Below, piece after piece: positions 9,828 to 36,824 of a stretch of DNA of 64,000 nt. The DNA comes from an uncultured Clostridium sp. GTDB lineage: Bacteria; Bacillota_I; Bacilli_A; RF39; UBA660. The stretch is from assembly GCA_905199855.1 (NCBI GenBank), contig CAJKHY010000004.1:2449-66448 (forward strand). The letters are read 5' to 3'. Numbering within the stretch: position 1 is the stretch's first letter; every line of letters starts with the position of its first letter. Position numbers and translations under genes: made by a program. The notes beneath the pieces were generated by a model. That model saw only the letters and a list, made by a program, of their open reading frames with translations. It had not been told where the DNA came from and ran no database searches.

Positions 9828-10004
9828 ACTATCAGTATTGAATATTGTTTTTTATTTTCTTTATAGTTATATTATACAATATAAAAATGATATTCGGTTG
9901 AAAAAATTGTGAATATATATCTTTTTACATTGAAATTTTATGAAATAGAAAAAAGAACTGAATAGAAAATTATTTCTACTTAGTTTCTTTTTGGGTAAAT
10001 GGAT

Positions 10005-11162: not shown

Positions 11163-11208
11163 GTTATATCCTCCTAGTAAAATTTATGCTTTAATATTTG
11201 ATTTATTA

Positions 11209-12225
11209 TTATTTTATGGTTATGGCGTATTTGGTATTTAAATCATCCTCGTAAGCGATGTAATAAGTTCCATTTTTGACATATTTGCTTTTGCTCACTA
11301 GTAAGTAATCACCGTCTTTGTGAATTTGCCACTTTTGGACTAGGCTTGTTTGATTGCTTGTATATAGATTATAATTATTTAGAATTTTATCGTTATCATA
11401 AGCAATGAATTTATAATTAGTTGTCCCTTGCTTTTCCATTGTGTATTTGTATGTTGAAGCGGGAATAGTTACGTTTACTGATTTTTTAGCGTTAGCACTT
11501 CCACATTTGATATTTGCAACAATGGTTACCTTTTTATCAGTTGTGTCTCTTGTAACTGTGCTGAAGTCAGCATCGGTCCATGTAATTTGACATTTACCAC
11601 TTACGGCAGTTGATTTTAATGTTTGATTGGCTTGTACAACAGCAAAGTCTTTTACTTCTTCTCTTGCTACAGATAAATATGTTTGGTCATCAGTTAGGGC
11701 AACTTCCCAACTTGCTACAAGTTTGATATCTTTGGTTACTGGTGTATTAAAATCATAATCAATACCATCTAACTTCCACCCTGTAAATACGTGTCCATTT
11801 TTGGTAGGAGTTTTTGGAATAGTCGCAGTTTTACCACTTTCAATGGTTTGATAGTCTACGGTGCTTCCTCCGTTTGAGTCAAATGATACAACATAACTAA
11901 ATATGTAATCGCTGTTAATTTCCCATTTGGCATAGATTATGGTATCACTTTTTATTTTTTTACTAAAATCATATTTAGTATTGTCAAAGTACCAGCCAAG
12001 AAATTTGTATCCTTCTCTTCTTGGTTCTGCAGGTTCTATGACAGAATTTCCTGTTCTTACCTTTCTTATTTCAATTATAGTGTTGTCTTCATTCATAAAT
12101 GTTACTGTATATTCAGTGGTGTATATTTTTATTATGAAAAATGCTATAAGGAATACTAATACAATGCCTAAACACAAAACAATACTTTTTACTATTTTTC
12201 CTTTTGTTTCTAAAGATACATTCAT
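11209..12225 (-). CDS. Signal-anchored surface protein with Listeria-Bacteroides-type repeats (YKFLGWY, GHVFTGWKLDG) and a C-terminal beta domain
   Basis: N-terminal TM (IVLCLGIVLVFLIAFFII) and two Gly-Trp repeats typical of PF09479-like repeats. Confidence 0.5.
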   Translation of the reverse strand: MNVSLETKGKIVKSIVLCLGIVLVFLIAFFIIKIYTTEYTVTFMNEDNTIIEIRKVRTGNSVIEPAEPRREGYKFLGWYFDNTKYDFSKKIKSDTIIYAKWEINSDYIFSYVVSFDSNGGSTVDYQTIESGKTATIPKTPTKNGHVFTGWKLDGIDYDFNTPVTKDIKLVASWEVALTDDQTYLSVAREEVKDFAVVQANQTLKSTAVSGKCQITWTDADFSTVTRDTTDKKVTIVANIKCGSANAKKSVNVTIPASTYKYTMEKQGTTNYKFIAYDNDKILNNYNLYTSNQTSLVQKWQIHKDGDYLLVSKSKYVKNGTYYIAYEDDLNTKYAITIK

Positions 12226-12326
12226 TTTATTATCACACCTTTATTTTTATCTAAGATAATTTTATCATATTAAAAAAATATTGTCTATATAAAAAGAGAA
12301 AAACTTTGTTTTCTCTTTGAGTAACT

Positions 12327-12887
12327 TTAATAAGATAAGAATGTCTTTATTGCAACCGTAGCCAAAAATGGTTTGTCCATCAATTCGTTTTGTACTTCAC
12401 CTGTTTCATGAAGCCATACTATTAATTCATAGTTATCAGCATCAGTAGCATTTAATACTAAACTAGTAGTATATAAATCAAGAGTTGTACTATCACCAAT
12501 ATTTGCGAAATCACCATTTGCGACACTTGTGTCATCTTTTAATAATTGCCACTTGAAACTGCTATTTTTTAGATTTTCATCAATGGTAATATCTTGCAGA
12601 AGGACTGTATATTTAGCAGTCATACTCATGCTTGAATTAGCTTTTACAGTAAATATAGTCTTATCTGCTTTTGTTGGAACTTCTGCTTCGGTTAAGGGAA
12701 TACCTGTTGTTGTACTTATATATTTACTTGTTGCGAATTCTACAACAATTTTATCACTAGTAGGGGTTTTTATATCAAAACTAGTAGATGTTGCTGTGGC
12801 ATACCAAGCATAACTAAAACCAAGTAATAAAGAGAACATTACCATTGTTGTTAAACATAAGACCAATAATAATTTTTTAAAGTTCAT
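12327..12887 (-). CDS. Small secreted protein with TasA/CalY-like SipW-cognate-type signal peptide (LLLGFSYAWYATATS)
   Basis: N-terminus MNFKKLLLVLCLTTMVMFSLLLGFSYAWYA, then a 150-aa Thr/Ser-rich beta-type domain. Confidence 0.45.
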   Translation of the reverse strand: MNFKKLLLVLCLTTMVMFSLLLGFSYAWYATATSTSFDIKTPTSDKIVVEFATSKYISTTTGIPLTEAEVPTKADKTIFTVKANSSMSMTAKYTVLLQDITIDENLKNSSFKWQLLKDDTSVANGDFANIGDSTTLDLYTTSLVLNATDADNYELIVWLHETGEVQNELMDKPFLATVAIKTFLSY

Positions 12888-14478: not shown

Positions 14479-15645
14479 CTATCTTGTGGTAGTATTTTTA
14501 CATTGTAATTTTTGAATAGCATCTAATATTTTATTACAGTTTTTCCTGTCTTTATTTTGACAAGCGCCTCCATAAGAAGATAAAAAATAGTTAGTTAAAT
14601 CAACATATTTATTGTTTCTTTTGACAATATAGACAAACTTGCTGTTTCCAATGGTTCCTATCATTGTACCCATTTCTATATTACTACCTATTTGATATGT
14701 TGTGTATACATTTTCTAAGTTGCAATAACTATGAAATTCGCCATGATTAGTAAATATAGTTACACCGTTTCTGCAGTTAGTGGTTGTTTCATTTACTACT
14801 TTGCCTCCTTCTAAGGCATAAACGTTAACTATGTCATTGATATCTTTTTTATCCAATTCAATACCTTGATTAAATTTATTATTAATTGAACCTACGCAAT
14901 TACCAATGTTAGGCTGATATCTCCTTCCTGTGGCATCTTTTAATAGTGATGAAACTGTAATTATATTTGTTAATGGTTTGTTTGGTGCACTTTCGGTTAC
15001 ACCTCCACAAGCGTATGATGTCTTGTCAGTGAAATATGGGGTAATATATATAGGTTTTCCTGCGTAGTTGTTTATTTGAAAATGTAAGTGTGTTCCTGTT
15101 GAACAACCTGTATTTCCAATTTTACCTAGTAATTGTCCCTGTTTTACTATATCTCCTACTTTGACTGTTTTGCTTGACATATGCATATAGTGTACTTGAT
15201 ATCCAGCAAATCTTGAATCAGTAACTTCCAGTGTAACGGAAACACCACGACTACTTGGGCATGTTACTGGTGAACATATTAAACTTTCTCCTGGCGCACA
15301 ATTTTTAGTATTATTGGTTGTGGCAATTATTTTACCATCAAATACAGCATAGATATTACCATCGCCAGTGCCTTTTGTTAAGTCCATACCTTTATGATAT
15401 ACTCCGCCTCCACGATTTCCACATACTACATCGGTAACACGATAATTTTTGATTGGGTCAACCATGTGGCACATAACATTGTAACCACTTTCACAACAGT
15501 TAGATACTCCGGGACAATATCCTTCTTCATTATCATCCATTTTAATTAAAGATTCGGTTCTAATAGAAAAAGATTTGTTGTTATTAAAGCTATAGTAAAA
15601 ACTAAATGAACATATAACAATTAATAAATATAAAGTTTTTTTCAA
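14479..15645 (-). CDS. Secreted Cys-rich M23 (LytM-type) metallopeptidase with a second, degenerate M23-like domain
   Basis: YHKGMD (HxxxD) and GTHLHFQI (HxH) in domain 1; residues about 230-388 repeat the fold without the His ligands. Confidence 0.7.
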   Translation of the reverse strand: MKKTLYLLIVICSFSFYYSFNNNKSFSIRTESLIKMDDNEEGYCPGVSNCCESGYNVMCHMVDPIKNYRVTDVVCGNRGGGVYHKGMDLTKGTGDGNIYAVFDGKIIATTNNTKNCAPGESLICSPVTCPSSRGVSVTLEVTDSRFAGYQVHYMHMSSKTVKVGDIVKQGQLLGKIGNTGCSTGTHLHFQINNYAGKPIYITPYFTDKTSYACGGVTESAPNKPLTNIITVSSLLKDATGRRYQPNIGNCVGSINNKFNQGIELDKKDINDIVNVYALEGGKVVNETTTNCRNGVTIFTNHGEFHSYCNLENVYTTYQIGSNIEMGTMIGTIGNSKFVYIVKRNNKYVDLTNYFLSSYGGACQNKDRKNCNKILDAIQKLQCKNTTTR

Positions 15646-15657
15646 TTTTAATCACCT

Positions 15658-16509
15658 CTATATTCTATTGGTTTTTTCTATTTTCTTTTTAATAAAGAGT
15701 ACTATTACCAATATAATTGTTAGTACTATTCCTATAAGAATTATTGGTACTATTTTGTTGTTTTTTACAAATTCAGTCCCATTTACTTTACCAAATGATA
15801 CTTTTTCAACAATATTTCCTGTTATTTTTTCAATAACATTTGGCTCACTTTTTTCGTTGTATGTATATTTATTTTTTTTAGAATATGTTAGTTTTAACTC
15901 AAAATTGGATGCATTGTTTTCATTTACAACCCAATAATGTGTGTTGGTTTTTTTGTCTATTTTGGTGGCATTACTATCAATAATATCATAATATGACTGT
16001 ATTTTTATAACTATGTTATCTACATCAAAAGTATATTTATATGAAGTCGTTAATTTTTTTACATTATCATAGTTAAATTTATTGCCATAAATGGTGTAGG
16101 TGGCACTGTCATTTGTTATTTTAGATGTTTCAAAATAATAATTAAAGAATAATGATTTTGAAAAATCTTGAATGTTATCTATATTCTTTTTTAATTTATA
16201 TGTTGCTGATTGTCCATTATTGTTTTTAAAGTTTGCTTTATTTGCTACAATAATTTGGGGTTCTATATCATTTTCACCCGACAAATAAAACTCTTTTATA
16301 TTATTAACTGCTGTACTTATTGGTTCACCATATTTTGACAATACTTCGTTTGTTTCAGTAAAATATATTGTTTCGTCTAAAGTGTTATTGTTATTTATTA
16401 TAAGTTCATAATCAACAGAACATCCAGTTAACAAGCATAGTGTTAATATTATTAATATTTTTTTCACTATATCACCTCTTAATATGGTCTTACAAAACCA
16501 GCAATCCAT
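15658..16509 (-). CDS. Bitopic lipoprotein, paralog 3
   Basis: LTGCSVDYELIIN lipobox (probable start VKKILIIL); C-terminal TM IVPIILIGIVLTIILVIVLFIKKK. Confidence 0.5.
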   Translation of the reverse strand: MDCWFCKTILRGDIVKKILIILTLCLLTGCSVDYELIINNNNTLDETIYFTETNEVLSKYGEPISTAVNNIKEFYLSGENDIEPQIIVANKANFKNNNGQSATYKLKKNIDNIQDFSKSLFFNYYFETSKITNDSATYTIYGNKFNYDNVKKLTTSYKYTFDVDNIVIKIQSYYDIIDSNATKIDKKTNTHYWVVNENNASNFELKLTYSKKNKYTYNEKSEPNVIEKITGNIVEKVSFGKVNGTEFVKNNKIVPIILIGIVLTIILVIVLFIKKKIEKTNRI

Positions 16510-18536
16510 GCAGAACCTTTTGCATTTGGAGCATACCTATTGTCGTATGCATCATAAATGGTAGTGGTATAAGCTGGTTCGCCTTCAGTAGTAATATGAG
16601 TTATCTCAATAGCACCATCAGGATGAACAGCAGTAACAACACCTACGTGCCCAATACAACCAAATCTATTACTTCTTCCATGACTTAATTTACAATTACC
16701 ATTACTGTCTAATCGGCTAGTAAAAAATAAATCTCCTGGCATTACACTGTTTACATCAACACAATTATCTCTTTTTCCTCTAAACATTTCGGCGGCAGAT
16801 GCACCATAATTAACACCACCCAATTTTAAGGCTGCACTGGCAAATTTATTGCAATCCCAACCACCATAATGATATGTCTTTTGCATTAGGGATGCATTTG
16901 TTTTAATGCTAGCAATTTTATCCCCAATTGATTTATTATAGCTACTACTATCTACATAATTGGTGCAAAAATCTGTATCTACTTCTTCTGGGTTTGGTTT
17001 TGGCTGTGGTTCATAATCTATTTCTTCATAATAATTATTATTGTAATATCTTGATTTTCTTCTTCCGGCACAGCTTAAATCACGATAACTTATTATATCT
17101 ACATCTTTATCACTACAAACATTGTATATCATTGTAGCATTTTCATAATATGAATACAAACTATATGTTTCAAATACTATTTGGCTAATATCTCGTCTTT
17201 TTTGTTTAACATCAGTTTTATCTACGTATTGATGGTAATATGATTCAATAAATCTATCACAGTAACATTTGTCTTTTCCTGTTTCTTCATCTTTTCCACA
17301 AAACATTTCAACATCAGCATCAGTTGGTAAATTACCTAATAAATATTCATTATATCCTTCACAGTCTAATTCATAACTTAAGTCATCAAGCCCAATGTCA
17401 CCAGAACCAGAAAAAGGCTTAGAGTATTTGACAGCATTTGTTTCTTTACAACCATATATACCTTGGGCATCAGAAGAATCAGTTAATTCATTATCAAAGC
17501 AATATAAATCATCATCATAAGAAGATAAATCATATGTTTCCATACAAGATTTACATGTAGAATCTTTATTAGGATCGCAATCCCAATAGTAACCTTCAGT
17601 TTGAATAACCCTATTATAATACTCAGTTGGTCCCAAAACCATACCATAATTCCCTACACGACTAATGCATTGTCCTTCCATTCCAACATCAACAATATTA
17701 ATTTCTATATGTCTAGTTGTATCAGTATAGGTTCCCACATATTCTGGATGTATTGTTAAATATGTCTCAATTCTTTTAATTTGATATTTTGACAATACCT
17801 CTACTCCTTCAATTGCTTTCCTCAATTTAGACAAATGATATTTTGAATCTATAGATTGTTTTGCATCATATAAAAAATTATTTTCTACAAAATCACGATA
17901 TGATCCAGTATGAAGGTCATATCCTTTTCCTTCTTCCACAAAATAACTATACTCTTTTTCAAATTCGTCATTTCTTGTCATTTCAGACTGATATCTACTA
18001 TTATATAATGTTGCTGTAATTAAAGTAGTATCTATTTGTACACCATACATTTTAGTATTAGCATTATCTGGATATAAAGGAGCATGTTGTGTTCTTTTTG
18101 AACGAAATATTTTTCTAAAAAAACTTCCTATTGATTGCCAAATAGACCCACCATTTTTATCTTCTTTATAAAATTCATAGGCATCATATAAAGCATCAAA
18201 ATATTTATCATTATTTTCTTTTAATTTTTCATCTTTACTATCAAAATATTGAGTGAAATTTAAAAATTCGTCTCTTTCTATTATCTTTCTTTCATAATCA
18301 GTTTCACCTTTAAGGCGCTCTGCTCCTGCACGTTCTACAGAGTTTAAGGTGGCAAGAGAGGCAAATATTTTTAGAACAACATAAATAAATACAGCAATAA
18401 AAAGAACGAAGGCAAAGCCAATAGCAATGATGCTTATTATTTTTGCTGTCTTTAGATTTTTTAGCATTTTTATAATGCCATTTATTTTTGAATTATTTTC
18501 TTTGTTGTTATTATTTATAAAATTTAAAAACTTCAT
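16479..18536 (-). CDS. Membrane-anchored cell-wall hydrolase: N-terminal TM, large Cys/Tyr-rich central region, C-terminal NlpC/P60 peptidase domain (T4SS VirB1/CwlT/TcpG-type role)
   Basis: C-terminal GGWDCNKFASAALKLGG (Cys nucleophile) ... CIGHVGVV (His) ... H, the NlpC/P60 arrangement; TM at residues 30-55. Confidence 0.6.
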   Translation of the reverse strand: MKFLNFINNNNKENNSKINGIIKMLKNLKTAKIISIIAIGFAFVLFIAVFIYVVLKIFASLATLNSVERAGAERLKGETDYERKIIERDEFLNFTQYFDSKDEKLKENNDKYFDALYDAYEFYKEDKNGGSIWQSIGSFFRKIFRSKRTQHAPLYPDNANTKMYGVQIDTTLITATLYNSRYQSEMTRNDEFEKEYSYFVEEGKGYDLHTGSYRDFVENNFLYDAKQSIDSKYHLSKLRKAIEGVEVLSKYQIKRIETYLTIHPEYVGTYTDTTRHIEINIVDVGMEGQCISRVGNYGMVLGPTEYYNRVIQTEGYYWDCDPNKDSTCKSCMETYDLSSYDDDLYCFDNELTDSSDAQGIYGCKETNAVKYSKPFSGSGDIGLDDLSYELDCEGYNEYLLGNLPTDADVEMFCGKDEETGKDKCYCDRFIESYYHQYVDKTDVKQKRRDISQIVFETYSLYSYYENATMIYNVCSDKDVDIISYRDLSCAGRRKSRYYNNNYYEEIDYEPQPKPNPEEVDTDFCTNYVDSSSYNKSIGDKIASIKTNASLMQKTYHYGGWDCNKFASAALKLGGVNYGASAAEMFRGKRDNCVDVNSVMPGDLFFTSRLDSNGNCKLSHGRSNRFGCIGHVGVVTAVHPDGAIEITHITTEGEPAYTTTIYDAYDNRYAPNAKGSAWIAGFVRPY

Positions 18537-18568
18537 TCTTTCACCACCATACTAATTTAGTTTGAATT

Positions 18569-27490: not shown

Positions 27491-28861
27491 TTAGTACTCA
27501 CAATTTCCTGGAGTTCTAGGATATGGGATGACGTCTCTTATGTTTTCAACACCTGTTAGGTAGATTAGTAATCTTTCAAAGCCCATACCAAAGCCTGAGT
27601 GAACGCATCCACCAAATTTTCTTAGGTTCATATACCATTCCATACCTTCTTTTTGCATGTTTAATTCTTCCATACGTTTTGCTAGTTTATCATAGTTTTC
27701 TTCTCTTTGAGAGCCACCCATTAATTCTCCAGCACCAGGTACTTCTAGGTCTACTGCGGCAACAGTTTTGCCGTCTTCATTTTGTTTCATATAAAATGCT
27801 TTGATATCTTTAGGCCAATTTTTGATAAATACAGGCCCATTAAAGTATTCTGTGATATATTTTTCATGTTCTTTGGCAATATCTTCTCCATACTCTGGTT
27901 CAAATTCCCATTTGATGTTAGCTTTTTTTAGGATAGAGATTACTTCTTCGTGGTCAATTCTTGTAAATTTAGAATTAATCAATTTAGTTAGTTTGTCTAT
28001 TAATCCTTTTTCAACATACGTGTCTAAGAATTTCATTTCATATGAAGCATGCTCTAGAACATATGATGTAACGTATTTTAACATTTCTTCCATGATATCC
28101 ATGTCTTTTTCTAAATCACAAAAGGCAATTTCTGGTTCGATCATCCAAAATTCGGCAGCGTGAGTTTTGGTATTTGAGTTTTCGGCTCTAAATGTTGGAC
28201 CAAATGTGTAAATCTTTTTATATGCTAGAGCGAATGTTTCTCCTTGTAGTTGACCCGATACTGTTAATGATGTTTTTTTGCCAAAGAAATCTTTGCTATA
28301 ATCTACTTTGCCTAAAGATGCTACTTTGTCTAAATCAAGGGTTGTTACTTGAAACATTTCCCCTGCTCCTTCACAGTCTGCTCCCGTTATAATTGGGGCA
28401 TGAAAGTAAACATATCCTCTTTCTTGGAAGTATTTATGTATTGCATAAGCCGCTACGCTTCTTACTCTAAATACAGCTTGAAATAGGTTTGTTCTTGGTC
28501 TTAGGTAAGCTTGATCTCTTAAAAATTCTCTTGTATGTCTTTTTGGTTGAATAGGATAATCATCTGGACAATCTCCTAATAAAGTAATGTTTGTAAGTTG
28601 TAGTTCAAAAGCTTGTCCTTCTTTTGGTGAGGTATTAACGATTCCTTCAACTTTAATTGCTGAACCTATTTTAAATTTTGTTATTTTATCAAAATTAGAT
28701 AAATTATTGTCATAAACAACTTGCAAGGTATTAATGATTGTACCATCATACATATCAATAAAGCAAATATTAGCTTGTTTGCGGTGGTTCTTTATCCAAC
28801 CACATATTTCTACTTTTTTTCCTAAATAATCTTTTTCGTATAAATCTTTAATATCTAACAT
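27491..28861 (-). CDS. asnS: Asparagine--tRNA ligase
   Basis: N-terminal OB-fold, class II motifs (FRAE, GGSQREE, GFGMGFERL); about 456 aa from MLDIKDLYEK. Confidence 0.85.
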   Translation of the reverse strand: MLDIKDLYEKDYLGKKVEICGWIKNHRKQANICFIDMYDGTIINTLQVVYDNNLSNFDKITKFKIGSAIKVEGIVNTSPKEGQAFELQLTNITLLGDCPDDYPIQPKRHTREFLRDQAYLRPRTNLFQAVFRVRSVAAYAIHKYFQERGYVYFHAPIITGADCEGAGEMFQVTTLDLDKVASLGKVDYSKDFFGKKTSLTVSGQLQGETFALAYKKIYTFGPTFRAENSNTKTHAAEFWMIEPEIAFCDLEKDMDIMEEMLKYVTSYVLEHASYEMKFLDTYVEKGLIDKLTKLINSKFTRIDHEEVISILKKANIKWEFEPEYGEDIAKEHEKYITEYFNGPVFIKNWPKDIKAFYMKQNEDGKTVAAVDLEVPGAGELMGGSQREENYDKLAKRMEELNMQKEGMEWYMNLRKFGGCVHSGFGMGFERLLIYLTGVENIRDVIPYPRTPGNCEY

Positions 28862-28943
28862 ATTATCAGTCCCTTCGTATAAGATATATCTATTATAAAA
28901 CAAAAATAGAAAAAAACAAATAATTTTTTGTTTATTTGTTTCA

Positions 28944-29315
28944 TTATTTGCTTTTTTTAATCATTTGCATTTTTTTATTAATTAAACTAACCGTTCTTTT
29001 AGGATCTTGAATTAATTGATTATATAATTCTGTATGTTTTCTTAGTTCTTTTTGAATTTTAATATCATCTTGTGATATTGAACCAACATATTCACCTTCG
29101 CCTTCATGAATAACTGAAACTTCTCTACCTAAAAAGTAATCGGTGGTTACTCCAAAGAAGTCCGCTAGCATAACAAATGTTTCTAGACTTGGTATTCTCG
29201 TACCATTTTCGTAACCGCATATTGATACTTTCGTGATACCTAGAGCATCTCCTAATGCTTGCTGTGATAAGTTCTTTTCTTTTCTCAATGCTTTTAGTCT
29301 TTGTCCTACGAACAT
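28944..29315 (-). CDS. XRE-family HTH transcriptional regulator
   Basis: LSQQALGDALGITKVSICGYENG helix-turn-helix. Confidence 0.7.
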   Translation of the reverse strand: MFVGQRLKALRKEKNLSQQALGDALGITKVSICGYENGTRIPSLETFVMLADFFGVTTDYFLGREVSVIHEGEGEYVGSISQDDIKIQKELRKHTELYNQLIQDPKRTVSLINKKMQMIKKSK

Positions 29316-29503
29316 AATATATTACCTTCCTTTGCTACTTAGCAGTAAGTACGTTACCGCTTTGTTAATGCTATTGTAATATATTATTTTGGTTAATTTC
29401 TTAATGTTAACTAATAAGAAATCAAAATAGGCTATTTTTGGCACATATTTTGATTATTTTATTTTTTTATGCTTTTTTATATGTAAGTATGAATACGTAT
29501 TAA

Positions 29504-30742
29504 TTATTTGCTAGCAATGTAGTAATTCTTCTTACCTCTTTTAATGATTAGGTAATTATAGATAAACATATCATCGTTTATGCTAGTAAGTACATCAGTA
29601 TATTTTTCATCATTTATGGTTATAGCTCCATTTGTGATAAATTCTTTGGCTTCTCTTTTGCTTTGTGAAGCTCCAATGCGAATTAACAAGTCTACTAGTG
29701 GTTCGCCTATTTCTACTTTTTTAATGTCAAAATCCTGAAATGCTTCCGCGATTTGTTTTGCATTTAATTTTTTTATTTCATTATTGAATAAGGCTTCTGT
29801 TATTTTAACAGCATCTTCATAATCTTCTTTGCTATGAATAAAAGTGATTATCGACTCTGCTAAGGCTTTTTGGGCAAGTCTTTGTTCTGGATGTTCTTTT
29901 AGACTTGTTTCTAATTCATCTATTTGGGATGGGCTTAAGAATGTTAATTTTTTTAAATATTCTATTACTTTGCTATCTTCGGTGTTTATAAAGAATTGAT
30001 ACATTTCATAAGGGCTTGTTTTGGATGCATCAAGCCAAACTGATTTGCCACTTTCACTTTTTCCAAACTTAGTGCCATCGGCTCTAGTGATAAGGGGCAT
30101 GGTCATGCCGTAACATTTGGTATCAATGCCATGTATTTTTCTAATTAGTTCTAATCCTGATGTGATGTTTCCCCATTGATCTTGGCCTCCAATTTGTAGT
30201 GTTACTCCGTATTTTTCATATAGTTTTAGAAAATCTATTGACTGAAGTATCATGTATGAAAATTCGGTATAGGTGATTCCTAGGTCTAGTCTTCTTTTAA
30301 CGGTGTCTTTACTTAGCATATAGTTAATATTGAAATGTTTTCCATAATCTCTTAAGAAGTCAATGGCATTCATTTGTAATAACCAATCGGCATTGTTGAT
30401 AATTTTGATATCAGTTCCTAGAATTTTATCTAGTTGTTTTTTGATTCCTTCTATATTTTTTAAAACTGCTTCTTTAGATATCATTGGTCTTTCTAAATTT
30501 GGTTTTGGATCACCGATTAGACCAGTTCCGCCACCTGCGATAATGATAGGATGATGTCCAGCATCAAGTAATCTTTTGGTCATGGCAATGACACTTGAGT
30601 AATGTCCAATATGAAGGCTGTCTGCAGTTGGGTCTATGCCAATATAAAAGGTTAATCCTCCTTCATTAATTTTATCAATGAGTTCTTCACTGGTGATGTT
30701 ATCTACTAAGCCTCTCCATTTTAATTCGTCAAATAATTTCAT
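29504..30742 (-). CDS. tyrS: Tyrosine--tRNA ligase
   Basis: HIGH (SLHIGH), KMSKS-type KFGKS, C-terminal S4 domain; start MKLFDELKWRG behind RBS AAGGAGGAG. Confidence 0.9.
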   Translation of the reverse strand: MKLFDELKWRGLVDNITSEELIDKINEGGLTFYIGIDPTADSLHIGHYSSVIAMTKRLLDAGHHPIIIAGGGTGLIGDPKPNLERPMISKEAVLKNIEGIKKQLDKILGTDIKIINNADWLLQMNAIDFLRDYGKHFNINYMLSKDTVKRRLDLGITYTEFSYMILQSIDFLKLYEKYGVTLQIGGQDQWGNITSGLELIRKIHGIDTKCYGMTMPLITRADGTKFGKSESGKSVWLDASKTSPYEMYQFFINTEDSKVIEYLKKLTFLSPSQIDELETSLKEHPEQRLAQKALAESIITFIHSKEDYEDAVKITEALFNNEIKKLNAKQIAEAFQDFDIKKVEIGEPLVDLLIRIGASQSKREAKEFITNGAITINDEKYTDVLTSINDDMFIYNYLIIKRGKKNYYIASK

Positions 30743-30957
30743 TTTTTTCTCCTCCTTAATATAAAAAGATGCTACCAAAGGACGAAAATCTCGTGGTACC
30801 ACCTTATTTGTTTCTTATTTTTTTAACGGTTTTAACCGATTAGCTAGAAATGTGTAATTCGTAAGATAAATATTTGTTTATTTCCACCACACATAAACTC
30901 TCTATAAGAATATTTTATTTACTACTTGGTCATTTCAAATACTAATAACTGTAAAAT
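30743..30957 (-). promoter_or_regulatory. T-box riboswitch leader of tyrS (promoter TTGCAA-16-TATAAT at 30965..30992)
   Basis: Leader contains F-box AACCGTTA, T-box sequence AAGGTGGTACCACGAG (variable base U fits an A discriminator such as tRNA-Tyr), and a terminator helix with U-run before the RBS. Confidence 0.7.
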
Positions 30958-31037
30958 TAAGTTAATTATATCATAATTTTTGTTATTTGCAAGTATTTTT
31001 TTATGTTTTAGTGTATAATATTTGTGAGGATGGTGCT

Positions 31038-32138
31038 ATGAAGATAAAAAGAATTATTATTAGTTTTTTTATGTTACTTGCTATTTCTATTTTAATTATA
31101 TTAATTAATTTTCAAGATGGTGATAAAAAGTTAGAAAAACTTAATTATAGTGATAAGGTTATTTCTATATTTCGAGATAAAGATATCTATAAGGATGTCT
31201 TAAAAGCAAATAAATATTCCAAGACTTTAGAGGTTGCTCTTACTGATAATTACTATGTTTCAAATTATTTAGATGATTATTTAGAAATTGATTATGTTGA
31301 TAATAAGGATTTTATTTTAGATGTTAATGCTTTGTTGGATTTGGGTTATTCTAGTAATCAGGTTAATACTTTGTTTAAATCTCTTAGCAATGATAGTGTT
31401 AAGTTAATTTTAAAAGAGGGTTATAATAATGATATATTTGATTATTTGAAGTTATCTTATTTTAACGAGAATTATTTGCCTAGATATATTGATTATAGGA
31501 AAAAGCATGATAATTTAATTATTGAGGATGTTGTTACTTATGTAAATGTTAATTTGGATTATGATTTTTATACTAATACTTCATTGATTAGTAATGGTAA
31601 TGATATGTTAGTTTTGGTAAATAAGTATAATTATTTAGATAAGGACTTTGTGCCTAGTGATTTGGAGTTGATTAGTAGTAATTATTCTACTAAGAAGTTG
31701 TATCTTAAGGATTATGCGGTTAATCCATTTGAGGAGATGTGTGCTGAGGCGATGGCACTTGGTATTACTATTAAGGCTGGGTCTACTTACCGCAGTTATA
31801 ATTATCAAAATAATTTATATAATTATTACGTGAAAAAGGATGGTGTAGATAAAGCTGATTCTTATTCGGCTAGGCCTGGTTATAGTGAACATCAGTTGGG
31901 ACTGGCTATTGATGTTAGTAATGGTTATGATTTTATAGATGAAGGTAGTGATGAGTATAATTATATTATTAATAATTCATATAAGTATGGTTTTGTTTTA
32001 AGGTATCCTAAGGGGAAGGAAAATATTACTGGTTATATGTTTGAGCCCTGGCATATTAGGTATTTGGGTGTGGATACGGCTACATACTTGCATGATCATA
32101 ATTTGGTATATGAGGAATATATAGGAAAAAAGAACTGA
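31038..32138 (+). CDS. Membrane-anchored M15B (VanY-type) D-alanyl-D-alanine carboxypeptidase
   Basis: SEHQLGLAIDV and EPWHIRY motifs; N-terminal TM. ORF is open from 30987 but likely starts MKIKR at 31038. Confidence 0.75.
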   Translation: MKIKRIIISFFMLLAISILIILINFQDGDKKLEKLNYSDKVISIFRDKDIYKDVLKANKYSKTLEVALTDNYYVSNYLDDYLEIDYVDNKDFILDVNALLDLGYSSNQVNTLFKSLSNDSVKLILKEGYNNDIFDYLKLSYFNENYLPRYIDYRKKHDNLIIEDVVTYVNVNLDYDFYTNTSLISNGNDMLVLVNKYNYLDKDFVPSDLELISSNYSTKKLYLKDYAVNPFEEMCAEAMALGITIKAGSTYRSYNYQNNLYNYYVKKDGVDKADSYSARPGYSEHQLGLAIDVSNGYDFIDEGSDEYNYIINNSYKYGFVLRYPKGKENITGYMFEPWHIRYLGVDTATYLHDHNLVYEEYIGKKN

Positions 32139-32149
32139 GTTGTTCTTTT

Positions 32150-34606
32150 TTAAGTACTTAATATTCTTTTTTTAATTAATTCTAGTTCTTTAACAAGGGT
32201 GGTAATATCTTTTCCACCTCCTTGAGCAAAGTATTTGCTACCATTTCCATTACCTCCAGTTTTAACAGAGATGCTGTTTACTATTTCTCCGCAGTGAATA
32301 AGTTCGCTTGTCGAGTTGGTAGAGCATAGGAAGTTAACAGAGTTATTATCAACATTTGCTAATAGGATAAAGTAATTATCTAGTCTATTCGCTAGGGCGT
32401 CGATAATGATTCTTAATATTTCTTTATCATATCCTTCAGTAATGGCTATGATGATGTTTAAATCTTTGTAAGTAATTTTTTCATTTAGGAATAGATCAAT
32501 ATTATTTAGAGCATTTTCTTTTTGAGCTAAAAAGAATGCTTTTTCTAATAATAATGTTTTTTCTTGAATTAAAGATAATTCATTTTTGTTGAATACGATA
32601 TCTGCATAACTAGTGGGTTTAGAGTTATCAATGTTAATGTTATAATCTAGTTTAATATTCATTAGTTTTGCTTTATCTAGGATGGTTTTGGCTTTGGATA
32701 ATAGTTTTACCATTTCACTATTATATGGTCTTATTTTGGAAAATAAGATAGGATAAATGTTATTATCAACGGCTCCTTCAATACGATATGTGTTTAGGCC
32801 TTTGTTTTCCACTAGTGAAAGGGCTACTTTTGATATTTCACTTGTATTATTTACAAATGTACCATCACATATTATTTTTGTATCACCAATAGTTATGAGT
32901 TTTACTTCATCAGTAGTATACAAACCATCTTTATTAAGATTTTTGATTTTAGATAGTTCTTTTTGGTTGATAATTGTTCTTTTTATGTCATAGTCTTTTT
33001 TTATTTCTTCATTTATTTTTTGTTCTATTTTAATGATTATTTCATCACTTAGTTTACCTTTATATTCAAAGTCGTATCTAAATGTTTTTGACGTTACTTT
33101 TGTCATTTTTGAAGTGATACTGTTACCTAGCATGGTGGTTATGACATGTTCAAGTAAATGTAAGGCAGTATGGTTTTTGTTTATGTTTTTTCTTTTGGAA
33201 TTTAGGACATGGGTTAAAACAGTATCTTTGTTATATAATGTTCCTTCTAGGATACGAATTTTAATAATACTTTGATTATTTATTGATTTGATGACGTCTA
33301 ATACTTCTATTTTAACATGATCATTTTTGATGTATCCTGTGTCTGATTCTTGGGTTCCACTGCTAACATAAAAGGGATTTTCTTCTAGGATAATATAGCC
33401 ATCGCTTTCTAGTTTATTTACTTTTTTGTTATCTTTAAAAATGGCTATTACTTTGGTTTCTAAACCTAATTTATCATAACCTACAAAGGTATCTTTGGTT
33501 TTAAATGATGCTATTTCAGGTGCAAAAAGGTCAATATCTTCGTTGTTGTTTTTAATGTTTTTAAGGCGATTAAATTCATCAATGTTTACTACTATATTAT
33601 TTTCTTTAGCACATTCATAGATTAATTCAATAGGCATATCGTATTTGTTATAAAGTGTAAAAAGAATTGCTTTATCTAAGATTTTTTTGCCTTTTTGGGC
33701 TTTAATCTCGGTAATTCCTTCTAAGATGTTTTTTTGTGATTTTGCTTCGATGTTATTTATTTTATGTTTTATTTTTGTGTTATTTATTTTGATAAGGGGA
33801 TATATTTTTTTGCTGTTTCCCACAGATATGTTGATAAGTTCTTGTAAGAATGGATGGTTAATGCAAAGTGCTATGCCATCTTTGAGAGCCTGTTTGATGA
33901 GTAAATCCACTTCTTCTTCATAATTCATAGCGATTAGGAAGGGAATTGTTTTAGCATTTTTTGTAATGCGTTTGAATTCTTTTTGTCCTAGATATGGTCT
34001 TTTGCATATATTTTCTAGTTTGTTTATAAGTGGACCATATATTTCGCTTTGATAAGTGTCATCTATTTTATTCATGACTATAGATATTTTATTTAGATAT
34101 AGATAAATTAAATCTTGGTTTGTTTCTCCTAAAATGATGTATCTTTGATTTTCTTCTATTTTGTGTTTGTCAAAAACATTGCCATATTTTTCTCCACGGT
34201 CATAATAAATAATCGTGTTTTTTAAATCTTTTTTTAGGATAAAGTTTTTCTTGTTTCTTACCTCTTGTAATAAGGCATTGGAACTATTGTATAATAATTC
34301 ATCAATGTGAAATATTAATCTATCTGGGTCTAAATCAAAATATTCATCATTGGTTAAAATGTCATATATGCTTGATAGTTGTTCATGATTGTTAGAAATT
34401 ATTAGTAAATCATTATATTCATAATCAGTTTCTTTTTTTATGATTACAGGCATTAGGGTAATACTGTTTATTTTTAGGTTATTATCTAGTTCTTTGACGT
34501 TTGTAACAAGGTTTACTTTATTATCATAAGGGATGCTAAAATAATGATTATTTGTTTGATTTTTGATGTATTCATTGCAGATGTTATAAATATTTATTTT
34601 TTCCAT
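32150..34606 (-). CDS. AlaRS-derived paralog: unknown 450-aa N-terminal region plus AlaRS-type editing domain plus C-Ala/DHHA1-type domain; no aminoacylation domain
   Basis: HTALHLLEH (HxxxH), FRYDF, ICDGTFVNNTSEI (CxxxH with H replaced by F), C-terminal GNGNGSKYFAQGGGKD. Confidence 0.55.
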   Translation of the reverse strand: MEKINIYNICNEYIKNQTNNHYFSIPYDNKVNLVTNVKELDNNLKINSITLMPVIIKKETDYEYNDLLIISNNHEQLSSIYDILTNDEYFDLDPDRLIFHIDELLYNSSNALLQEVRNKKNFILKKDLKNTIIYYDRGEKYGNVFDKHKIEENQRYIILGETNQDLIYLYLNKISIVMNKIDDTYQSEIYGPLINKLENICKRPYLGQKEFKRITKNAKTIPFLIAMNYEEEVDLLIKQALKDGIALCINHPFLQELINISVGNSKKIYPLIKINNTKIKHKINNIEAKSQKNILEGITEIKAQKGKKILDKAILFTLYNKYDMPIELIYECAKENNIVVNIDEFNRLKNIKNNNEDIDLFAPEIASFKTKDTFVGYDKLGLETKVIAIFKDNKKVNKLESDGYIILEENPFYVSSGTQESDTGYIKNDHVKIEVLDVIKSINNQSIIKIRILEGTLYNKDTVLTHVLNSKRKNINKNHTALHLLEHVITTMLGNSITSKMTKVTSKTFRYDFEYKGKLSDEIIIKIEQKINEEIKKDYDIKRTIINQKELSKIKNLNKDGLYTTDEVKLITIGDTKIICDGTFVNNTSEISKVALSLVENKGLNTYRIEGAVDNNIYPILFSKIRPYNSEMVKLLSKAKTILDKAKLMNIKLDYNINIDNSKPTSYADIVFNKNELSLIQEKTLLLEKAFFLAQKENALNNIDLFLNEKITYKDLNIIIAITEGYDKEILRIIIDALANRLDNYFILLANVDNNSVNFLCSTNSTSELIHCGEIVNSISVKTGGNGNGSKYFAQGGGKDITTLVKELELIKKRILST

Positions 34607-35154
34607 TTATTTTCCACCTCTATACATATTCTTTTTGTTTCTTTTTCTAAGTTTTCTAAGTTATTATTTACTATTTTATAATTATAGTCAGTATAATTAT
34701 CTAAATCTATTTCACTGATATCATTTTGTTCTTGCTCTGTTAAATCGGTTTGAAAATTAGGCCTTGTGATGTGAATTGTTATTACTTTTGAAAAATGTTT
34801 TTTTAAATGAGTGATTTCTTTTTTAAAACGAACATCACCAATTATAATAATGTTAGCATAATGAGCATAGATATTAATGTCTTCAATTAATCTATCTATT
34901 AAGAAGAATTCTTTATTCATATCAATACGAATATAATTACCTAGCTCTTGTAAAAATGAGCGATTTTTATCACTGTCGGTAATGTTATAGTCTTTAATTT
35001 CTTTGGCATAATATTTTAAGTATTTTGCAAACGAAGTGTTAACTACTTTAAGATTATGTTCTTGATAATATGAAGCAATTAGGTTACTTAGTGTTGTTTT
35101 GCCTTGTCTAGCTTTGCCACATATTAAAAATATTATTGGTTCAATACATTTCAT
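34594..35154 (-). CDS. P-loop NTPase (putative small nucleotide kinase-like), overlaps and is co-transcribed with the AlaRS paralog
   Basis: Walker A ICGKARQGKTTL near N-terminus; 186 aa. Confidence 0.45.
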   Translation of the reverse strand: MKCIEPIIFLICGKARQGKTTLSNLIASYYQEHNLKVVNTSFAKYLKYYAKEIKDYNITDSDKNRSFLQELGNYIRIDMNKEFFLIDRLIEDINIYAHYANIIIIGDVRFKKEITHLKKHFSKVITIHITRPNFQTDLTEQEQNDISEIDLDNYTDYNYKIVNNNLENLEKETKRICIEVENKWKK

Positions 35155-35218: not shown

Positions 35219-35683
35219 TTATTGCCTATTTGCTTTAGTTAGGACTTTAAAATCACTTGTTATTTCTTCAATATATATTTCTTTATTTAATTCAATATTT
35301 TTTAATTCTAAATCAATAATTGTAATGATATCTATTTTTTCTTCGATCGAATCTACTAATTCATGAAGTATATCATTTTCAGTAATTACTTTTTCTACAA
35401 TAATTGTTTTTAATTGTTCTACTTTGAATGGTTCTCCATTTATAAAACGATATAATGTATCAAGGTTACTGATTTTGTCTCTTAAGTTATTTATATCTAC
35501 TTCAATTGATTTAATTTTATTTTTTTTGTTTCTTATAATTTGTTTATTAATCTTATTTTTTTGTTCTATTCCAAGTCGGTATATTGCTTTATAATAAATA
35601 AGTAATCTTTCTATTTCTATTTTATATACTTCTTTATTTGTTTGAAAGTGTTTTAGTTTCATAATGTTATTCCTTAATTTCAA
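35219..35683 (-). CDS. Coiled-coil hypothetical protein
   Basis: Lys/Glu/Ile-rich heptad-like sequence; no recognisable motif. Confidence 0.3.
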   Translation of the reverse strand: MKLRNNIMKLKHFQTNKEVYKIEIERLLIYYKAIYRLGIEQKNKINKQIIRNKKNKIKSIEVDINNLRDKISNLDTLYRFINGEPFKVEQLKTIIVEKVITENDILHELVDSIEEKIDIITIIDLELKNIELNKEIYIEEITSDFKVLTKANRQ

Positions 35684-36824
35684 TTAATTTATATTTTTCA
35701 TTTATAAAGACAAAGAGTACTTTAAATAATGAAATGATCGGAGTAGAGATAATCATTCCTAATATGCCAAAGAAATAGCCAAATACTAATAAACCGACAA
35801 TGATGATTACTGGATGTAATTTCATGGTTTTGCTCATTACAAGCGGTTGAATAAAATTGCCTTCAATTCCTTGGATAATGATGTTTACTATTAAGACTGC
35901 AGTGCCTACTAGTGGTCCTTGGGCATATCCCACTAAAACAGCCGGAGTTGCACCGATGTAAGGTCCAATATAAGGAATGATATTAGTAACTGCACAGAAC
36001 AAAGCAAATAGTAATGGTGCTTTTAGTCCTGCAAACCAGAATCCTATGGCACAAGAGAAGAAAATAATTGATGCGTCAATAAGGGTTCCCTGTACAAAGT
36101 TTTTTAAGGTTGTATCCATTTTTGAACAAATATCATCTATTGTTTTTTGATATTTTTTTGGAATAAATGAAATAATCTTTTTAATTGAGTTATCAAAGTC
36201 AAATAATAAATATAAACCAATAATCATACCAATTACAAAACTCCATAGAGTTGAGAAAAATGTTTTAATAGTATTAACTAACATTTCAGGTAATTTTGCT
36301 GTGAAGTTAGTTACTAGAGTTTCTATTTGTTTGTAGAAATCTAATTTGGTTGAGGTTATATCAAAGTTAGGAGAAGAAAGTTTGTCAAAAATATTATCAG
36401 TGTATCCTTTTAAACTATCTAGATAACTAGGAACACTTTTAACAAATGAATTAAGTTCATCTAGTAAAATAGGGATTAGTGAAGACATGACAAGATAAAC
36501 TATTACTAAGAAGACAATGTAGGTAAATATTGTTCCTAGAACACGGTTAACTCCTTTTTTGTTTAGTTTATTTACTATTGGGTTTAATAACCAGGCGACA
36601 AAAACACCTATAAAAAGTGGCGATATAACAGCTAAGATATTACTAATAAATTTAAATATGCCCCACTCGGCTAAAACTTTAGTAGATACATACAAAACAA
36701 GAACAATTACTAGAACAAAAACTATTTTTAACATAACATTTAATATTTTAATGATTTCGTTTAGTTTTTCGTAGTTAATTTTTTCTTTATCATCATTTTT
36801 AAAAATCTTTAACACGTTAATCAC
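35667..36824 (-). CDS. AI-2E family transporter (UPF0118/PerM-like)
   Basis: 8 TM helices, size and conserved G/P pattern of the family. Confidence 0.65.
   Translation of the reverse strand: MINVLKIFKNDDKEKINYEKLNEIIKILNVMLKIVFVLVIVLVLYVSTKVLAEWGIFKFISNILAVISPLFIGVFVAWLLNPIVNKLNKKGVNRVLGTIFTYIVFLVIVYLVMSSLIPILLDELNSFVKSVPSYLDSLKGYTDNIFDKLSSPNFDITSTKLDFYKQIETLVTNFTAKLPEMLVNTIKTFFSTLWSFVIGMIIGLYLLFDFDNSIKKIISFIPKKYQKTIDDICSKMDTTLKNFVQGTLIDASIIFFSCAIGFWFAGLKAPLLFALFCAVTNIIPYIGPYIGATPAVLVGYAQGPLVGTAVLIVNIIIQGIEGNFIQPLVMSKTMKLHPVIIIVGLLVFGYFFGILGMIISTPIISLFKVLFVFINEKYKLIEIKE

What the first reader, a model, noticed from the sequence alone, without database searches (positions are those of the whole stretch)
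32150..35154. AlaRS-derived editing/C-Ala paralog lacking the aminoacylation domain, with a mutated CxxxH zinc site, co-encoded with a P-loop NTPase
The C-terminal 360 aa align motif by motif with the AlaRS editing (HxxxH present, CxxxH changed to CDGTF) and C-Ala/DHHA1-like region (GNGNGSKYFAQGGGKD). The N-terminal 450 aa show no class II synthetase motifs. The 3' end overlaps a 186-aa Walker-A protein by 13 bp, and upstream are a coiled-coil protein and an AI-2E transporter. This is not a standard AlaX. It may be a tRNA-binding protein repurposed for non-translational RNA handling, a regulator, or a nucleotide-modifying role together with the P-loop partner.
Basis: partly seen in the sequence, partly recalled or inferred. 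Interest (0 to 1): 0.6.

Follow-up and report, generated by a model that had tools for sequence, protein, structure and literature searches.

The report
Conserved dead alaS ortholog (pseudo-AlaRS)
This gene sits where related gut bacteria keep their alanyl-tRNA synthetase gene, but it has lost the parts needed to charge tRNA while selection has kept the rest intact, so it probably does a different, still unknown, tRNA-related job.

Summary
The 818-aa protein (32150-34606, minus strand) is homologous to AlaRS along its whole length, so it does not lack the aminoacylation domain. It carries a shrunken remnant of that domain: 81 residues are missing, motifs 2 and 3 are gone, and the G3:U70-reading Asp is Asn. 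In this lineage the editing core is also eroded (CxxxH to CDGTF, QAGS lost). The beta-barrel and C-Ala regions are conserved about as well as in working AlaRS.

It is not a paralog in a new context. AI-2E transporter / small protein / P-loop kinase / alaS is a conserved four-gene cluster in related uncultured gut Bacilli, which carry a canonical alaS at that position. One MAG has the kinase fused to a canonical AlaRS, so the P-loop partner is inherited.

The dead form occurs in at least four lineages (five with a 177-aa fragment), is monophyletic, and has dN/dS of about 0.10, so it is a selected protein. A deep-branching member still has intact editing motifs, so charging was lost first.

Most likely it is a non-charging tRNA-docking or dimerising AlaRS derivative. 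Whether a working alaS exists elsewhere in the genome could not be checked.

The parts
32150..34606 (-). Pseudo-AlaRS, 818 aa: full-length AlaRS derivative at the ancestral alaS position. A strong Shine-Dalgarno (AGAGGTGG) lies upstream of the ATG.
34073..34606 (-). aa 1-178: remnant of the class II aminoacylation domain. Motif 2 (CxRTxDIE..RHHTFFEMLGNFSxGDYF), FWEIGxGPxGP, EIWNNVFSQ and motif 3 (NIDTGMGLER) are deleted or replaced. Only 12-13% of canonical-invariant columns are kept.
33491..34072 (-). aa 179-372: helical tRNA-recognition domain remnant. GRGYVLRRLLRR is replaced by EEEVDLLIKQALKDG. YDTYG is YNKYD (Asp400 E. coli / Asp450 A. fulgidus becomes Asn320; Gly403 becomes Asp323).
33203..33490 (-). 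aa 373-468: beta-barrel subdomain of the editing domain, conserved at the canonical level (73-93% of canonical invariants kept; 61% identity to canonical L092).
32768..33202 (-). aa 469-613: editing core, partly eroded. HxxxH (H479, H483) and C580 are kept. H584 is Phe, QAGS is SKMT, and the GAMALFxxKYGD loop is replaced. (GGQ is GTQ at aa 417-419, in the adjacent beta-barrel part.)
32150..32767 (-). aa 614-818 plus stop: C-Ala (helical coiled-coil arm plus DHHA1-like globular domain with GGNGNGSKYFAQGGG), conserved at the canonical level.
34594..35154 (-). 186-aa P-loop small-molecule kinase of the T4 dNMP-kinase / phosphomevalonate-kinase type (Walker A GKARQGKT). It overlaps the pseudo-AlaRS start by 13 bp. 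It is an inherited operon partner of alaS in this clade.
35219..35683 (-). Small protein 'X' (147-154 aa, no Pfam family), weakly conserved third member of the cluster. The orthologs next to canonical alaS are about 200 aa and carry a hydrophobic segment that is absent here.
35667..36824 (-). AI-2E family transporter, first gene of the conserved AI-2E / X / kinase / alaS cluster.

Best explanation
The gene is the resident alaS of this lineage (positional ortholog), converted into a non-charging pseudo-enzyme. Its aminoacylation site and its G3:U70 acceptor-stem reader are destroyed, so it cannot make Ala-tRNA(Ala). That activity must come from another AlaRS gene not visible in this window (inferred). 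Selection has nevertheless kept the whole protein. It has kept best the half that in real AlaRS docks tRNA and dimerises: the beta-barrel, the frame of the editing domain, and C-Ala. The most likely mode of action is therefore non-catalytic. It would be a dimeric protein that binds tRNA, most plausibly tRNA(Ala), through C-Ala and the beta-barrel, and/or pairs with the working AlaRS through the C-Ala arm. It would act as a tRNA-holding or regulatory subunit rather than an enzyme. The order of events is shown: charging was lost first (member P0132 still has intact editing motifs), and the editing pocket was remodelled later in the window's sub-lineage. The P-loop kinase is an ancestral operon partner of alaS, not a newly recruited one. 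Shown: homology, motif loss, synteny, selection, order of loss. Inferred: tRNA binding or dimerisation as the retained activity, and the existence of a second alaS.
For: Loss of charging:
- The NCBIfam alaS equivalog scores 234.5 against a cutoff of 457 and matches only model positions 218-847.
- Pfam tRNA-synt_2c matches only profile positions 199-547.
- phmmer of aa 1-372 against 1.84 billion representatives aligns canonical AlaRS only from about aa 135-170 onward.
- Alignments show motifs 2 and 3 deleted or replaced, with 81 residues missing before FVGY.
- The Asp that reads G3:U70 is Asn320. D400N cuts E. coli kcat/Km 25-fold (PMC6055181).

Positional orthology:
- The AI-2E / X / kinase / alaS cluster carries canonical alaS in L092, L008, L014 and others.
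- The dead clade is sister to these canonical AlaRS with 92-93% bootstrap.

Selection:
- dN/dS for window versus L087 is 0.10. By domain: 0.127 remnant, 0.09 tRNA-recognition, 0.073 editing, 0.086 C-Ala. TyrRS is 0.06.
- Intact ORFs with the same deletions occur in four or five lineages down to 36% identity.
- The exact protein is found in 35 collection blocks and at least 23 contigs.

Differential retention (share of canonical-invariant columns kept):
- Catalytic 12-13%, tRNA-recognition 23-33%, editing core 40-50%.
- Beta-barrel 73-93%, C-Ala 59-83%.
- C-Ala is the main tRNA-elbow binder, and bacterial AlaRS dimerises through it (abstracts and text of PMC10036535, PMC4649089, PMC6055181).

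Order of loss: P0132 keeps 82% of editing-core invariants, including CGGTH, but only 16% of catalytic ones.

Fold: the AlphaFold model has pLDDT 85 and AlaRS architecture.
Against: - No second alaS was seen. There is none in the 64-kb window, and the organism's genome could not be retrieved.
- There is no direct evidence of tRNA or AlaRS binding.
- The editing region has the lowest dN/dS (0.073) and keeps three of four zinc ligands, so a catalytic role there is not excluded.
- The Arg-rich helix of the tRNA-recognition domain is lost, so overall tRNA affinity may be much lower.
- The AlphaFold model was built with canonical AlaRS in the alignment and may be biased toward the canonical fold.
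Confidence: 0.6

Rival explanations
1. It is a trans-editing factor: an AlaX-like deacylase of Ser- or Gly-tRNA(Ala) carrying a dead N-terminal half. It would use a three-ligand zinc site (H479, H483, C580) plus C-Ala for tRNA docking.
For: HxxxH and the essential Cys (E. coli C666; review PMC8583063) are kept. The beta-barrel and C-Ala are conserved. The editing region has the lowest dN/dS, 0.073. The deep member P0132 has fully canonical editing motifs, so the family probably passed through such a stage.
Against: In the window lineage the editing core keeps only 40-50% of canonical invariants. The fourth zinc ligand is Phe in all three sequences of this sub-lineage that cover the editing core (window, L087, L001). 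QAGS is SKMT/IRNS, GGQ is GTQ/GIQ, and the GAMALFxxKYGD loop is replaced. tRNA_SAD scores below the Pfam cutoff (22.7 versus 24), and AlaXM scores 100 versus a cutoff of 300.
Confidence: 0.2
2. The dead AlaRS and the DNMK-like kinase form a functional two-protein module. This would be a kinase-linked second function of AlaRS that alone survives here, for example acting on a nucleotide or on tRNA or aminoacyl-tRNA.
For: The kinase gene overlaps the AlaRS gene by 4-23 bp wherever both ends were read, in the four pseudo pairs and five of the canonical pairs. It is fused to AlaRS in P0027. The kinase is intact and strongly constrained in the pseudo lineage (dN/dS 0.057, Walker A and invariant Asp/Glu kept). 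Its rate is unchanged: 61.8% identity versus 63.3% at equal AI-2E divergence.
Against: The linkage can be plain operon inheritance. In other relatives the gene upstream of alaS is an unrelated AAA_18 kinase or true Cmk, so the link to this kinase family is not obligatory. No interaction data exist. The fold points only to a generic small-molecule kinase.
Confidence: 0.12
3. It is a decaying pseudogene, or an annotation or assembly artefact of a normal alaS.
For: It evolves about twice as fast as canonical AlaRS at equal divergence (53% versus 73% identity).
Against: dN/dS is 0.10 in every domain. The reading frame is uninterrupted in the three full-length lineages and in the partial L102 sequence, all with shared deletions. 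An identical protein occurs on at least 23 independent contigs. A strong SD is present.
Confidence: 0.03
4. It is still the cell's only alanyl-tRNA synthetase, with a radically re-built active site.
For: It sits at the ancestral alaS locus, and no other alaS was found in the window.
Against: The motif-2 and motif-3 segments, and the beta-strands carrying them, are deleted. The acceptor-stem reader is mutated, and D400N alone cripples E. coli AlaRS. The score is half the equivalog cutoff.
Confidence: 0.02

Closest known systems
Canonical bacterial AlaRS (alaS; TIGR00344; Pfam tRNA-synt_2c + tRNA_SAD + DHHA1)
   Same: Same four-domain order, same locus and operon partners as alaS of sister genomes. 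The beta-barrel and C-Ala are conserved at canonical level, and the fold matches 3WQY and 9A7X.
   Different: Class II motifs are deleted, 81 residues are missing, the G3:U70 reader is lost, the editing pocket is eroded, and the score is half the equivalog cutoff.
AlaX / AlaXp free-standing editing proteins (AlaX-S, -M, -L)
   Same: AlaRS-derived, no aminoacylation, editing-domain fold (Foldseek TM 0.81-0.87 to AlaX-type structures 3KEW/2E1B/9IUW, normalised to target length). Member P0132 has intact HxxxH and CxxxH like AlaX.
   Different: [quoted passage not shown] It arose recently from the resident alaS, not from the ancient AlaX lineage. In the window lineage CxxxH is CxxxF and Q-x-G-S is lost. 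The AlaXM model scores 100 against a cutoff of 300.
SLIMP (insect mitochondrial SerRS-like protein) and similar aaRS-derived pseudo-enzymes such as HisZ
   Same: Full-length aaRS derivative without aminoacylation activity, kept by selection. SLIMP still binds tRNA and heterodimerises with the canonical enzyme (PMC9437257). This is the working model proposed here.
   Different: Different aaRS family and kingdom. Here the dead copy occupies the ancestral locus. The partner enzyme and any binding remain unobserved.
Naturally occurring mini-AlaRS (catalytic + tRNA-recognition only; PMC10036535)
   Same: Shows that AlaRS can be split functionally into a charging half and an editing/C-Ala half.
   Different: It is the mirror image. 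Mini-AlaRS keeps what this protein has lost and lacks what this protein keeps.
T4 gp1 dNMP kinase / animal phosphomevalonate kinase family (Pfam DNMK PF21448, P-mevalo_kinase)
   Same: The P-loop partner matches DNMK (28.0 bits versus cutoff 27.1). Its model is closest to phosphomevalonate kinases 7XND and 3CH4 (TM 0.70-0.76).
   Different: Substrate unknown. A conserved, sometimes fused, partnership with alaS was not found described in the papers searched.

Membership tests
Alanine--tRNA ligase (functional AlaRS, TIGR00344 equivalog) | Whole-protein score above the curated equivalog cutoff | tested here: not met
   234.5 bits versus cutoff 457; only model positions 218-847 aligned
Alanine--tRNA ligase (functional AlaRS, TIGR00344 equivalog) | Class II active site: motif 2 (Arg of CxRTxD, RHHTFFEMLGNFSFGDYF), FWExGPCGP, WNxVF, motif 3 (IDTGMGLER) | tested here: not met
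   The segments are deleted or replaced in alignments A1 and A4. No canonical AlaRS aligns to aa 1-135 in a search of 1.84 billion representatives.
Alanine--tRNA ligase (functional AlaRS, TIGR00344 equivalog) | G3:U70 recognition pair Asn303/Asp400 (E. coli numbering) with Tyr399 and Gly403 | tested here: not met
   Asp becomes Asn320 and Gly becomes Asp323 (YNKYD). The Asn303 segment is deleted. Residue roles are from PMC6055181.
Alanine--tRNA ligase (functional AlaRS, TIGR00344 equivalog) | Editing domain zinc motifs HxxxH and CxxxH plus QxGS | tested here: not met
   HxxxH and Cys are present, but CxxxH is CDGTF and QAGS is SKMT
Alanine--tRNA ligase (functional AlaRS, TIGR00344 equivalog) | C-Ala (DHHA1-like) domain with Gly-rich motif | tested here: met
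   Pfam DHHA1 39.2 bits versus 25.9. GGNGNGSKYFAQGGG present. 59-83% of canonical invariants kept.
Alanine--tRNA ligase (functional AlaRS, TIGR00344 equivalog) | Alanylation of tRNA(Ala) | not testable with these tools
   Needs an enzyme assay or complementation
AlaX / AlaXp trans-editing proteins | Free-standing editing domain without aminoacylation-domain remnant | tested here: not met
   A 373-aa homologous N-terminal remnant is present and under selection
AlaX / AlaXp trans-editing proteins | Intact HxxxH + CxxxH zinc site; family model score | tested here: not met
   CDGTF. NF040865 AlaXM scores 100.2 versus cutoff 300. tRNA_SAD scores 22.7 versus 24.
AlaX / AlaXp trans-editing proteins | Deacylation of Ser/Gly-tRNA(Ala) | not testable with these tools
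   Needs a biochemical assay
aaRS-derived pseudo-enzymes (SLIMP/HisZ type) | aaRS homolog lacking catalytic residues yet under purifying selection | tested here: met
   Motif loss. dN/dS 0.10. Four or five lineages.
aaRS-derived pseudo-enzymes (SLIMP/HisZ type) | Coexists with a functional enzyme of the same specificity in the same genome | not testable with these tools
   No genome or MAG of this organism could be retrieved. None in the window.
aaRS-derived pseudo-enzymes (SLIMP/HisZ type) | Binds tRNA and/or the canonical enzyme | not testable with these tools
   Only inferred from conserved C-Ala and beta-barrel
DNMK / NMP-kinase-fold small-molecule kinases (P-loop partner) | Pfam DNMK above gathering score; Walker A; NMP-kinase fold | tested here: met
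   28.0 bits versus 27.1 (marginal). GKARQGKT present. Foldseek best hits are phosphomevalonate, APS and adenylate-type kinases.

The most novel reading that the evidence does not exclude
In this clade AlaRS has an unrecognised second function carried out together with the DNMK-like kinase, which is translationally coupled to it and in one genome fused to it. In the window's lineage that second function alone has been retained. The dead AlaRS would serve as a tRNA(Ala) or Ala-tRNA(Ala) docking scaffold for a kinase-linked process, for example coupling tRNA(Ala) status to nucleotide or cell-wall metabolism. An even more extreme reading, that the organism has no other AlaRS, is not formally excluded but is very unlikely.
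Probability: 0.12. Interest if true: 0.8.

Novelty: new variant of a known kind. Interest (0 to 1): 0.6.

Why it matters
aaRS-derived pseudo-enzymes are known (HisZ, SLIMP), and AlaRS has spawned AlaX. A full-length AlaRS that died in place at the alaS locus and was then kept under purifying selection through speciation was not listed in the aaRS-duplication review read here (PMC9437257), and none turned up in my literature searches.

It implies that these common gut Bacilli replaced their native alaS function from elsewhere. It also gives a natural dissection of AlaRS: what the beta-barrel and C-Ala half is good for on its own.

The family also supplies an ordered series (canonical, then charging-dead but editing-intact, then both eroded) that can be tested directly. 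It exposes a conserved and unexplained kinase-alaS operon and fusion.

Tried and rejected
Finding the second alaS:
- tblastn of three canonical AlaRS against the window found only the target locus.
- Exact-sequence look-ups showed the protein only in ENA and Logan metagenome contigs.
- Cluster listings gave no accessions.
- I tested whether the most frequently sampled clade-B AlaRS (P0012/P0222) is the co-resident enzyme. The samples do not overlap, and its L19-LepB...cmk-alaS context looks like a native ortholog of another species. Rejected as unsupported.
- P0009 (canonical, T-box) and the dead P0132 come from adjacent SRA runs but never from the same run. Inconclusive.
- Tetranucleotide signatures did not discriminate genomes.

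Other checks:
- T-box or other RNA leader in front of the pair: none, even at E of 1 or less. L092 also has none, so its absence is not informative.
- PDB sequence search for the kinase was uninformative.
- The promoter/terminator scan was no better than shuffles in this AT-rich DNA.
- P0269 (807 aa) looked like another short form but is an N-truncated canonical AlaRS.
- The idea that the window pair is a duplicated paralog in a new context was rejected by synteny and the tree.
Full report
WHAT IS THERE

The window is low-GC (about 29%) chromosomal DNA of an uncultured member of the Bacilli. It carries GyrA, Lon, PolA, Fpg, DnaB/DnaI-like proteins, TmcAL-like, ThiI, S4, TyrRS, AsnRS and Mur ligase.

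On the minus strand lies an 818-aa ORF (32150-34606). Its start overlaps by 13 bp the end of a 186-aa Walker-A ORF (34594-35154). Upstream of these are a 154-aa ORF and an AI-2E transporter.

Family matches:
- Pfam finds tRNA-synt_2c (E 2.7e-34), but only profile positions 199-547 on aa 141-466.
- Pfam finds DHHA1 (aa 717-809) and a sub-threshold tRNA_SAD.
- The NCBIfam alaS equivalog scores 234.5 against a cutoff of 457. AlaXM scores 100 against 300.

THE N-TERMINAL HALF IS A REMNANT, NOT AN ABSENCE

Alignment with the closest canonical AlaRS (33-39% identity; 895-901 aa) shows homology from the first residues. Shared stretches include LTNDEYFDLDPDRL, YYDRGEKYG, RYI, ICKRPY..QKEFKRI and PIEL.

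Internal deletions remove NAGVTPL, RHHTFFEMLGNFSIGDYF, FWEIGxGPSGP and EIWNNVFSQ... The motifs NIDTGMGVER and GRGYVLRRLLRR are replaced. The protein is 81 residues shorter than its relatives before the FVGY motif and equal in length after it.

A phmmer search of aa 1-372 against 1.84 billion representative proteins aligned canonical AlaRS only from about aa 135-170 onward. Only other dead forms matched over the full length.

The Asp that reads G3:U70 (A. fulgidus D450, E. coli D400) is Asn320, and Gly403 is Asp. In E. coli, D400N alone lowers kcat/Km 25-fold (PMC6055181).

The AlphaFold model (pLDDT 85) retains AlaRS architecture. Its best Foldseek hits are full-length AlaRS structures. The alignment used for the model contained canonical sequences, which may bias it.

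IT IS THE POSITIONAL ORTHOLOG OF alaS

The closest canonical AlaRS, P0005 (locus L092), lies in AI-2E / about 200-aa protein / DNMK-like kinase / alaS, with the kinase overlapping alaS by 17 bp. The same arrangement occurs in GTDB MAGs L008, L014, L015-L018, L021-L024 and L029.

The small middle protein is a weak ortholog of the window's 154-aa ORF (shared C-terminal IYIEE..SDFK motif). The AI-2E proteins are 60-62% identical to the window's.

An NJ tree on the un-accelerated regions, and one on the whole C-terminal half, both make the dead forms monophyletic (67-100% bootstrap). Both place them as sister to exactly this AI-2E/DNMK group (92-93%). The gene is therefore the resident alaS that degenerated in place, not a paralog in a new context.

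THE KINASE PARTNER IS INHERITED

The kinase (Pfam DNMK 28.0 bits against 27.1; fold closest to phosphomevalonate, APS and adenylate-type kinases) sits directly upstream of canonical alaS in at least 15 genomes. It overlaps alaS wherever I read both gene ends. It is fused to a canonical AlaRS in MAG protein P0027.

In other relatives the upstream gene is an unrelated AAA_18 kinase, or genuine Cmk (L100, L104). In L004 an Ala-specific T-box with a GCU specifier precedes the AAA_18 kinase gene. No T-box precedes the window pair.

In the dead lineage the kinase evolves at an unchanged rate. It is 61.8% identical between window and L001, against 63.3% between L008 and L092, at equal AI-2E divergence of 76.5%. 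Its dN/dS is 0.057.

IT IS A SELECTED PROTEIN, AND THE LOSS WAS ORDERED

Members found:
- The window/P0001/P0002 group: 92% identity, a 409-member cluster, and the exact window protein in 35 blocks and at least 23 contigs.
- L102: 72% identity over the first 425 aa.
- P0003/L001: 53% identity, with the same synteny through VanY, TyrRS, HTH and AsnRS.
- P0132/L103: 36% identity in the N-terminal half, with the kinase overlapping by 17 bp.
- Fragment P0210.

All cover the N-terminal region and share its degeneration.

dN/dS for window versus L087 is 0.10 overall. [quoted passage not shown] TyrRS gives 0.06 and VanY 0.23. At equal divergence the dead form keeps 53% identity where canonical AlaRS keeps 73%.

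Share of columns invariant in canonical AlaRS that are retained:

| Domain | Retained |
|---|---|
| Catalytic | 12-13% |
| tRNA-recognition | 23-33% |
| Editing core | 40-50% |
| Beta-barrel | 73-93% |
| C-Ala | 59-83% |

P0132 has an equally dead catalytic remnant (16%) but keeps 82% of editing-core invariants, including GGQ, HxxxH and CGGTH. Aminoacylation was therefore lost first. The editing pocket was remodelled later, on the branch leading to the window.

HOW IT MOST LIKELY WORKS

Shown: it cannot charge tRNA; it is maintained by selection; and the best-kept parts are those that in AlaRS bind the tRNA elbow and mediate dimerisation (C-Ala; PMC10036535, PMC4649089, PMC6055181), together with the beta-barrel.

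Inferred: it acts non-catalytically as a tRNA-docking and/or AlaRS-pairing subunit. This resembles SLIMP, the SerRS-like protein that binds tRNA, does not charge it, and heterodimerises with SerRS (PMC9437257). Also inferred: a second AlaRS supplies Ala-tRNA.

The main rival is residual or altered trans-editing on a three-ligand zinc site. This is supported by the low dN/dS of the editing region and by P0132. It is opposed by the loss of His584, QAGS, GGQ and the MALF loop.

WHAT COULD NOT BE SETTLED

No complete genome or MAG of this organism could be retrieved, so the existence and origin of a working alaS remain untested.

COMPARISON AND NOVELTY

The protein fails the membership tests for functional AlaRS and for AlaX. 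It fits the general class of aaRS-derived pseudo-enzymes. A full-length dead AlaRS was not listed in the aaRS-duplication review read here, and none turned up in my literature searches. I rate it a new variant of a known kind, of moderate to high interest.

Noticed in passing
window 2809-4487 and 24013-25691: Two 100% identical copies of a roughly 1.68-kb element, each encoding a 431-aa protein with an HTH_38 domain (IS30-like transposase). The related 41-kb contig behind L089 ends about where the second copy begins, as expected for an assembly break at a repeat.
   Followed up: partly
window about 14479-23891 (M23 peptidase 14479-15645; TraG-like P-loop 18569-20353; TraC-like 20350-20928): Conjugation/type IV secretion-like gene block. 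Two of its proteins are 91-95% identical to those on L001, although housekeeping neighbours (TyrRS, AsnRS) are only 83-85% identical. This suggests a recently shared mobile element.
   Followed up: partly
L092 8973-12198; L008 5150-8391; L007 5126-8388; P0027; about ten further loci: A DNMK-like P-loop kinase gene sits directly upstream of canonical alaS across a clade of gut Bacilli MAGs, overlapping it by 4-23 bp in the five loci where both ends were read. It is fused to AlaRS in one MAG protein. I found no description of this link.
   Followed up: partly
L004 9223-9402 (T-box), 9441-10004 (AAA_18 kinase), 10001-12694 (alaS); L091; L100/L104: In other relatives the gene just upstream of alaS is a different kinase: an AAA_18 type (67% identical between L004 and L091) or true cytidylate kinase. 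In L004 an Ala-specific T-box (GCU specifier) precedes the kinase-alaS pair, so the kinase is probably co-regulated by tRNA(Ala) charging.
   Followed up: partly
window 35219-35683 versus L008 4493-5119 and L092 8170-8778: The small protein between the AI-2E transporter and the kinase is about 50 aa shorter in the dead-AlaRS lineage. It lacks the hydrophobic, probably membrane-spanning, segment present in the orthologs next to canonical alaS. It evolves fast (dN/dS 0.36).
   Followed up: no
window 27491-30802: tyrS and asnS are separated by a small HTH_3/XRE regulator. No T-box leader reaches the Rfam gathering score anywhere in the 64-kb window, which is unusual for aaRS genes in Firmicutes.
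   Followed up: no
window 25708-27501: The Mur-ligase ORF reads as 597 aa here. On the near-identical contig L089 it was called as two genes (440 + 161 aa). The difference may lie in start or stop choice, or it may be a real fusion. The ORF also overlaps the asnS start.
   Followed up: no
window 30987-32138 (+): The VanY-type D-Ala-D-Ala carboxypeptidase converges on the pseudo-AlaRS with only 11 bp between the stop codons. This adjacency is conserved in the window, L087 and L001 lineages but not next to P0132. Other cell-wall genes (PBP5-type carboxypeptidase, VanZ, PAP2, Mur ligase) are scattered through the window.
   Followed up: no
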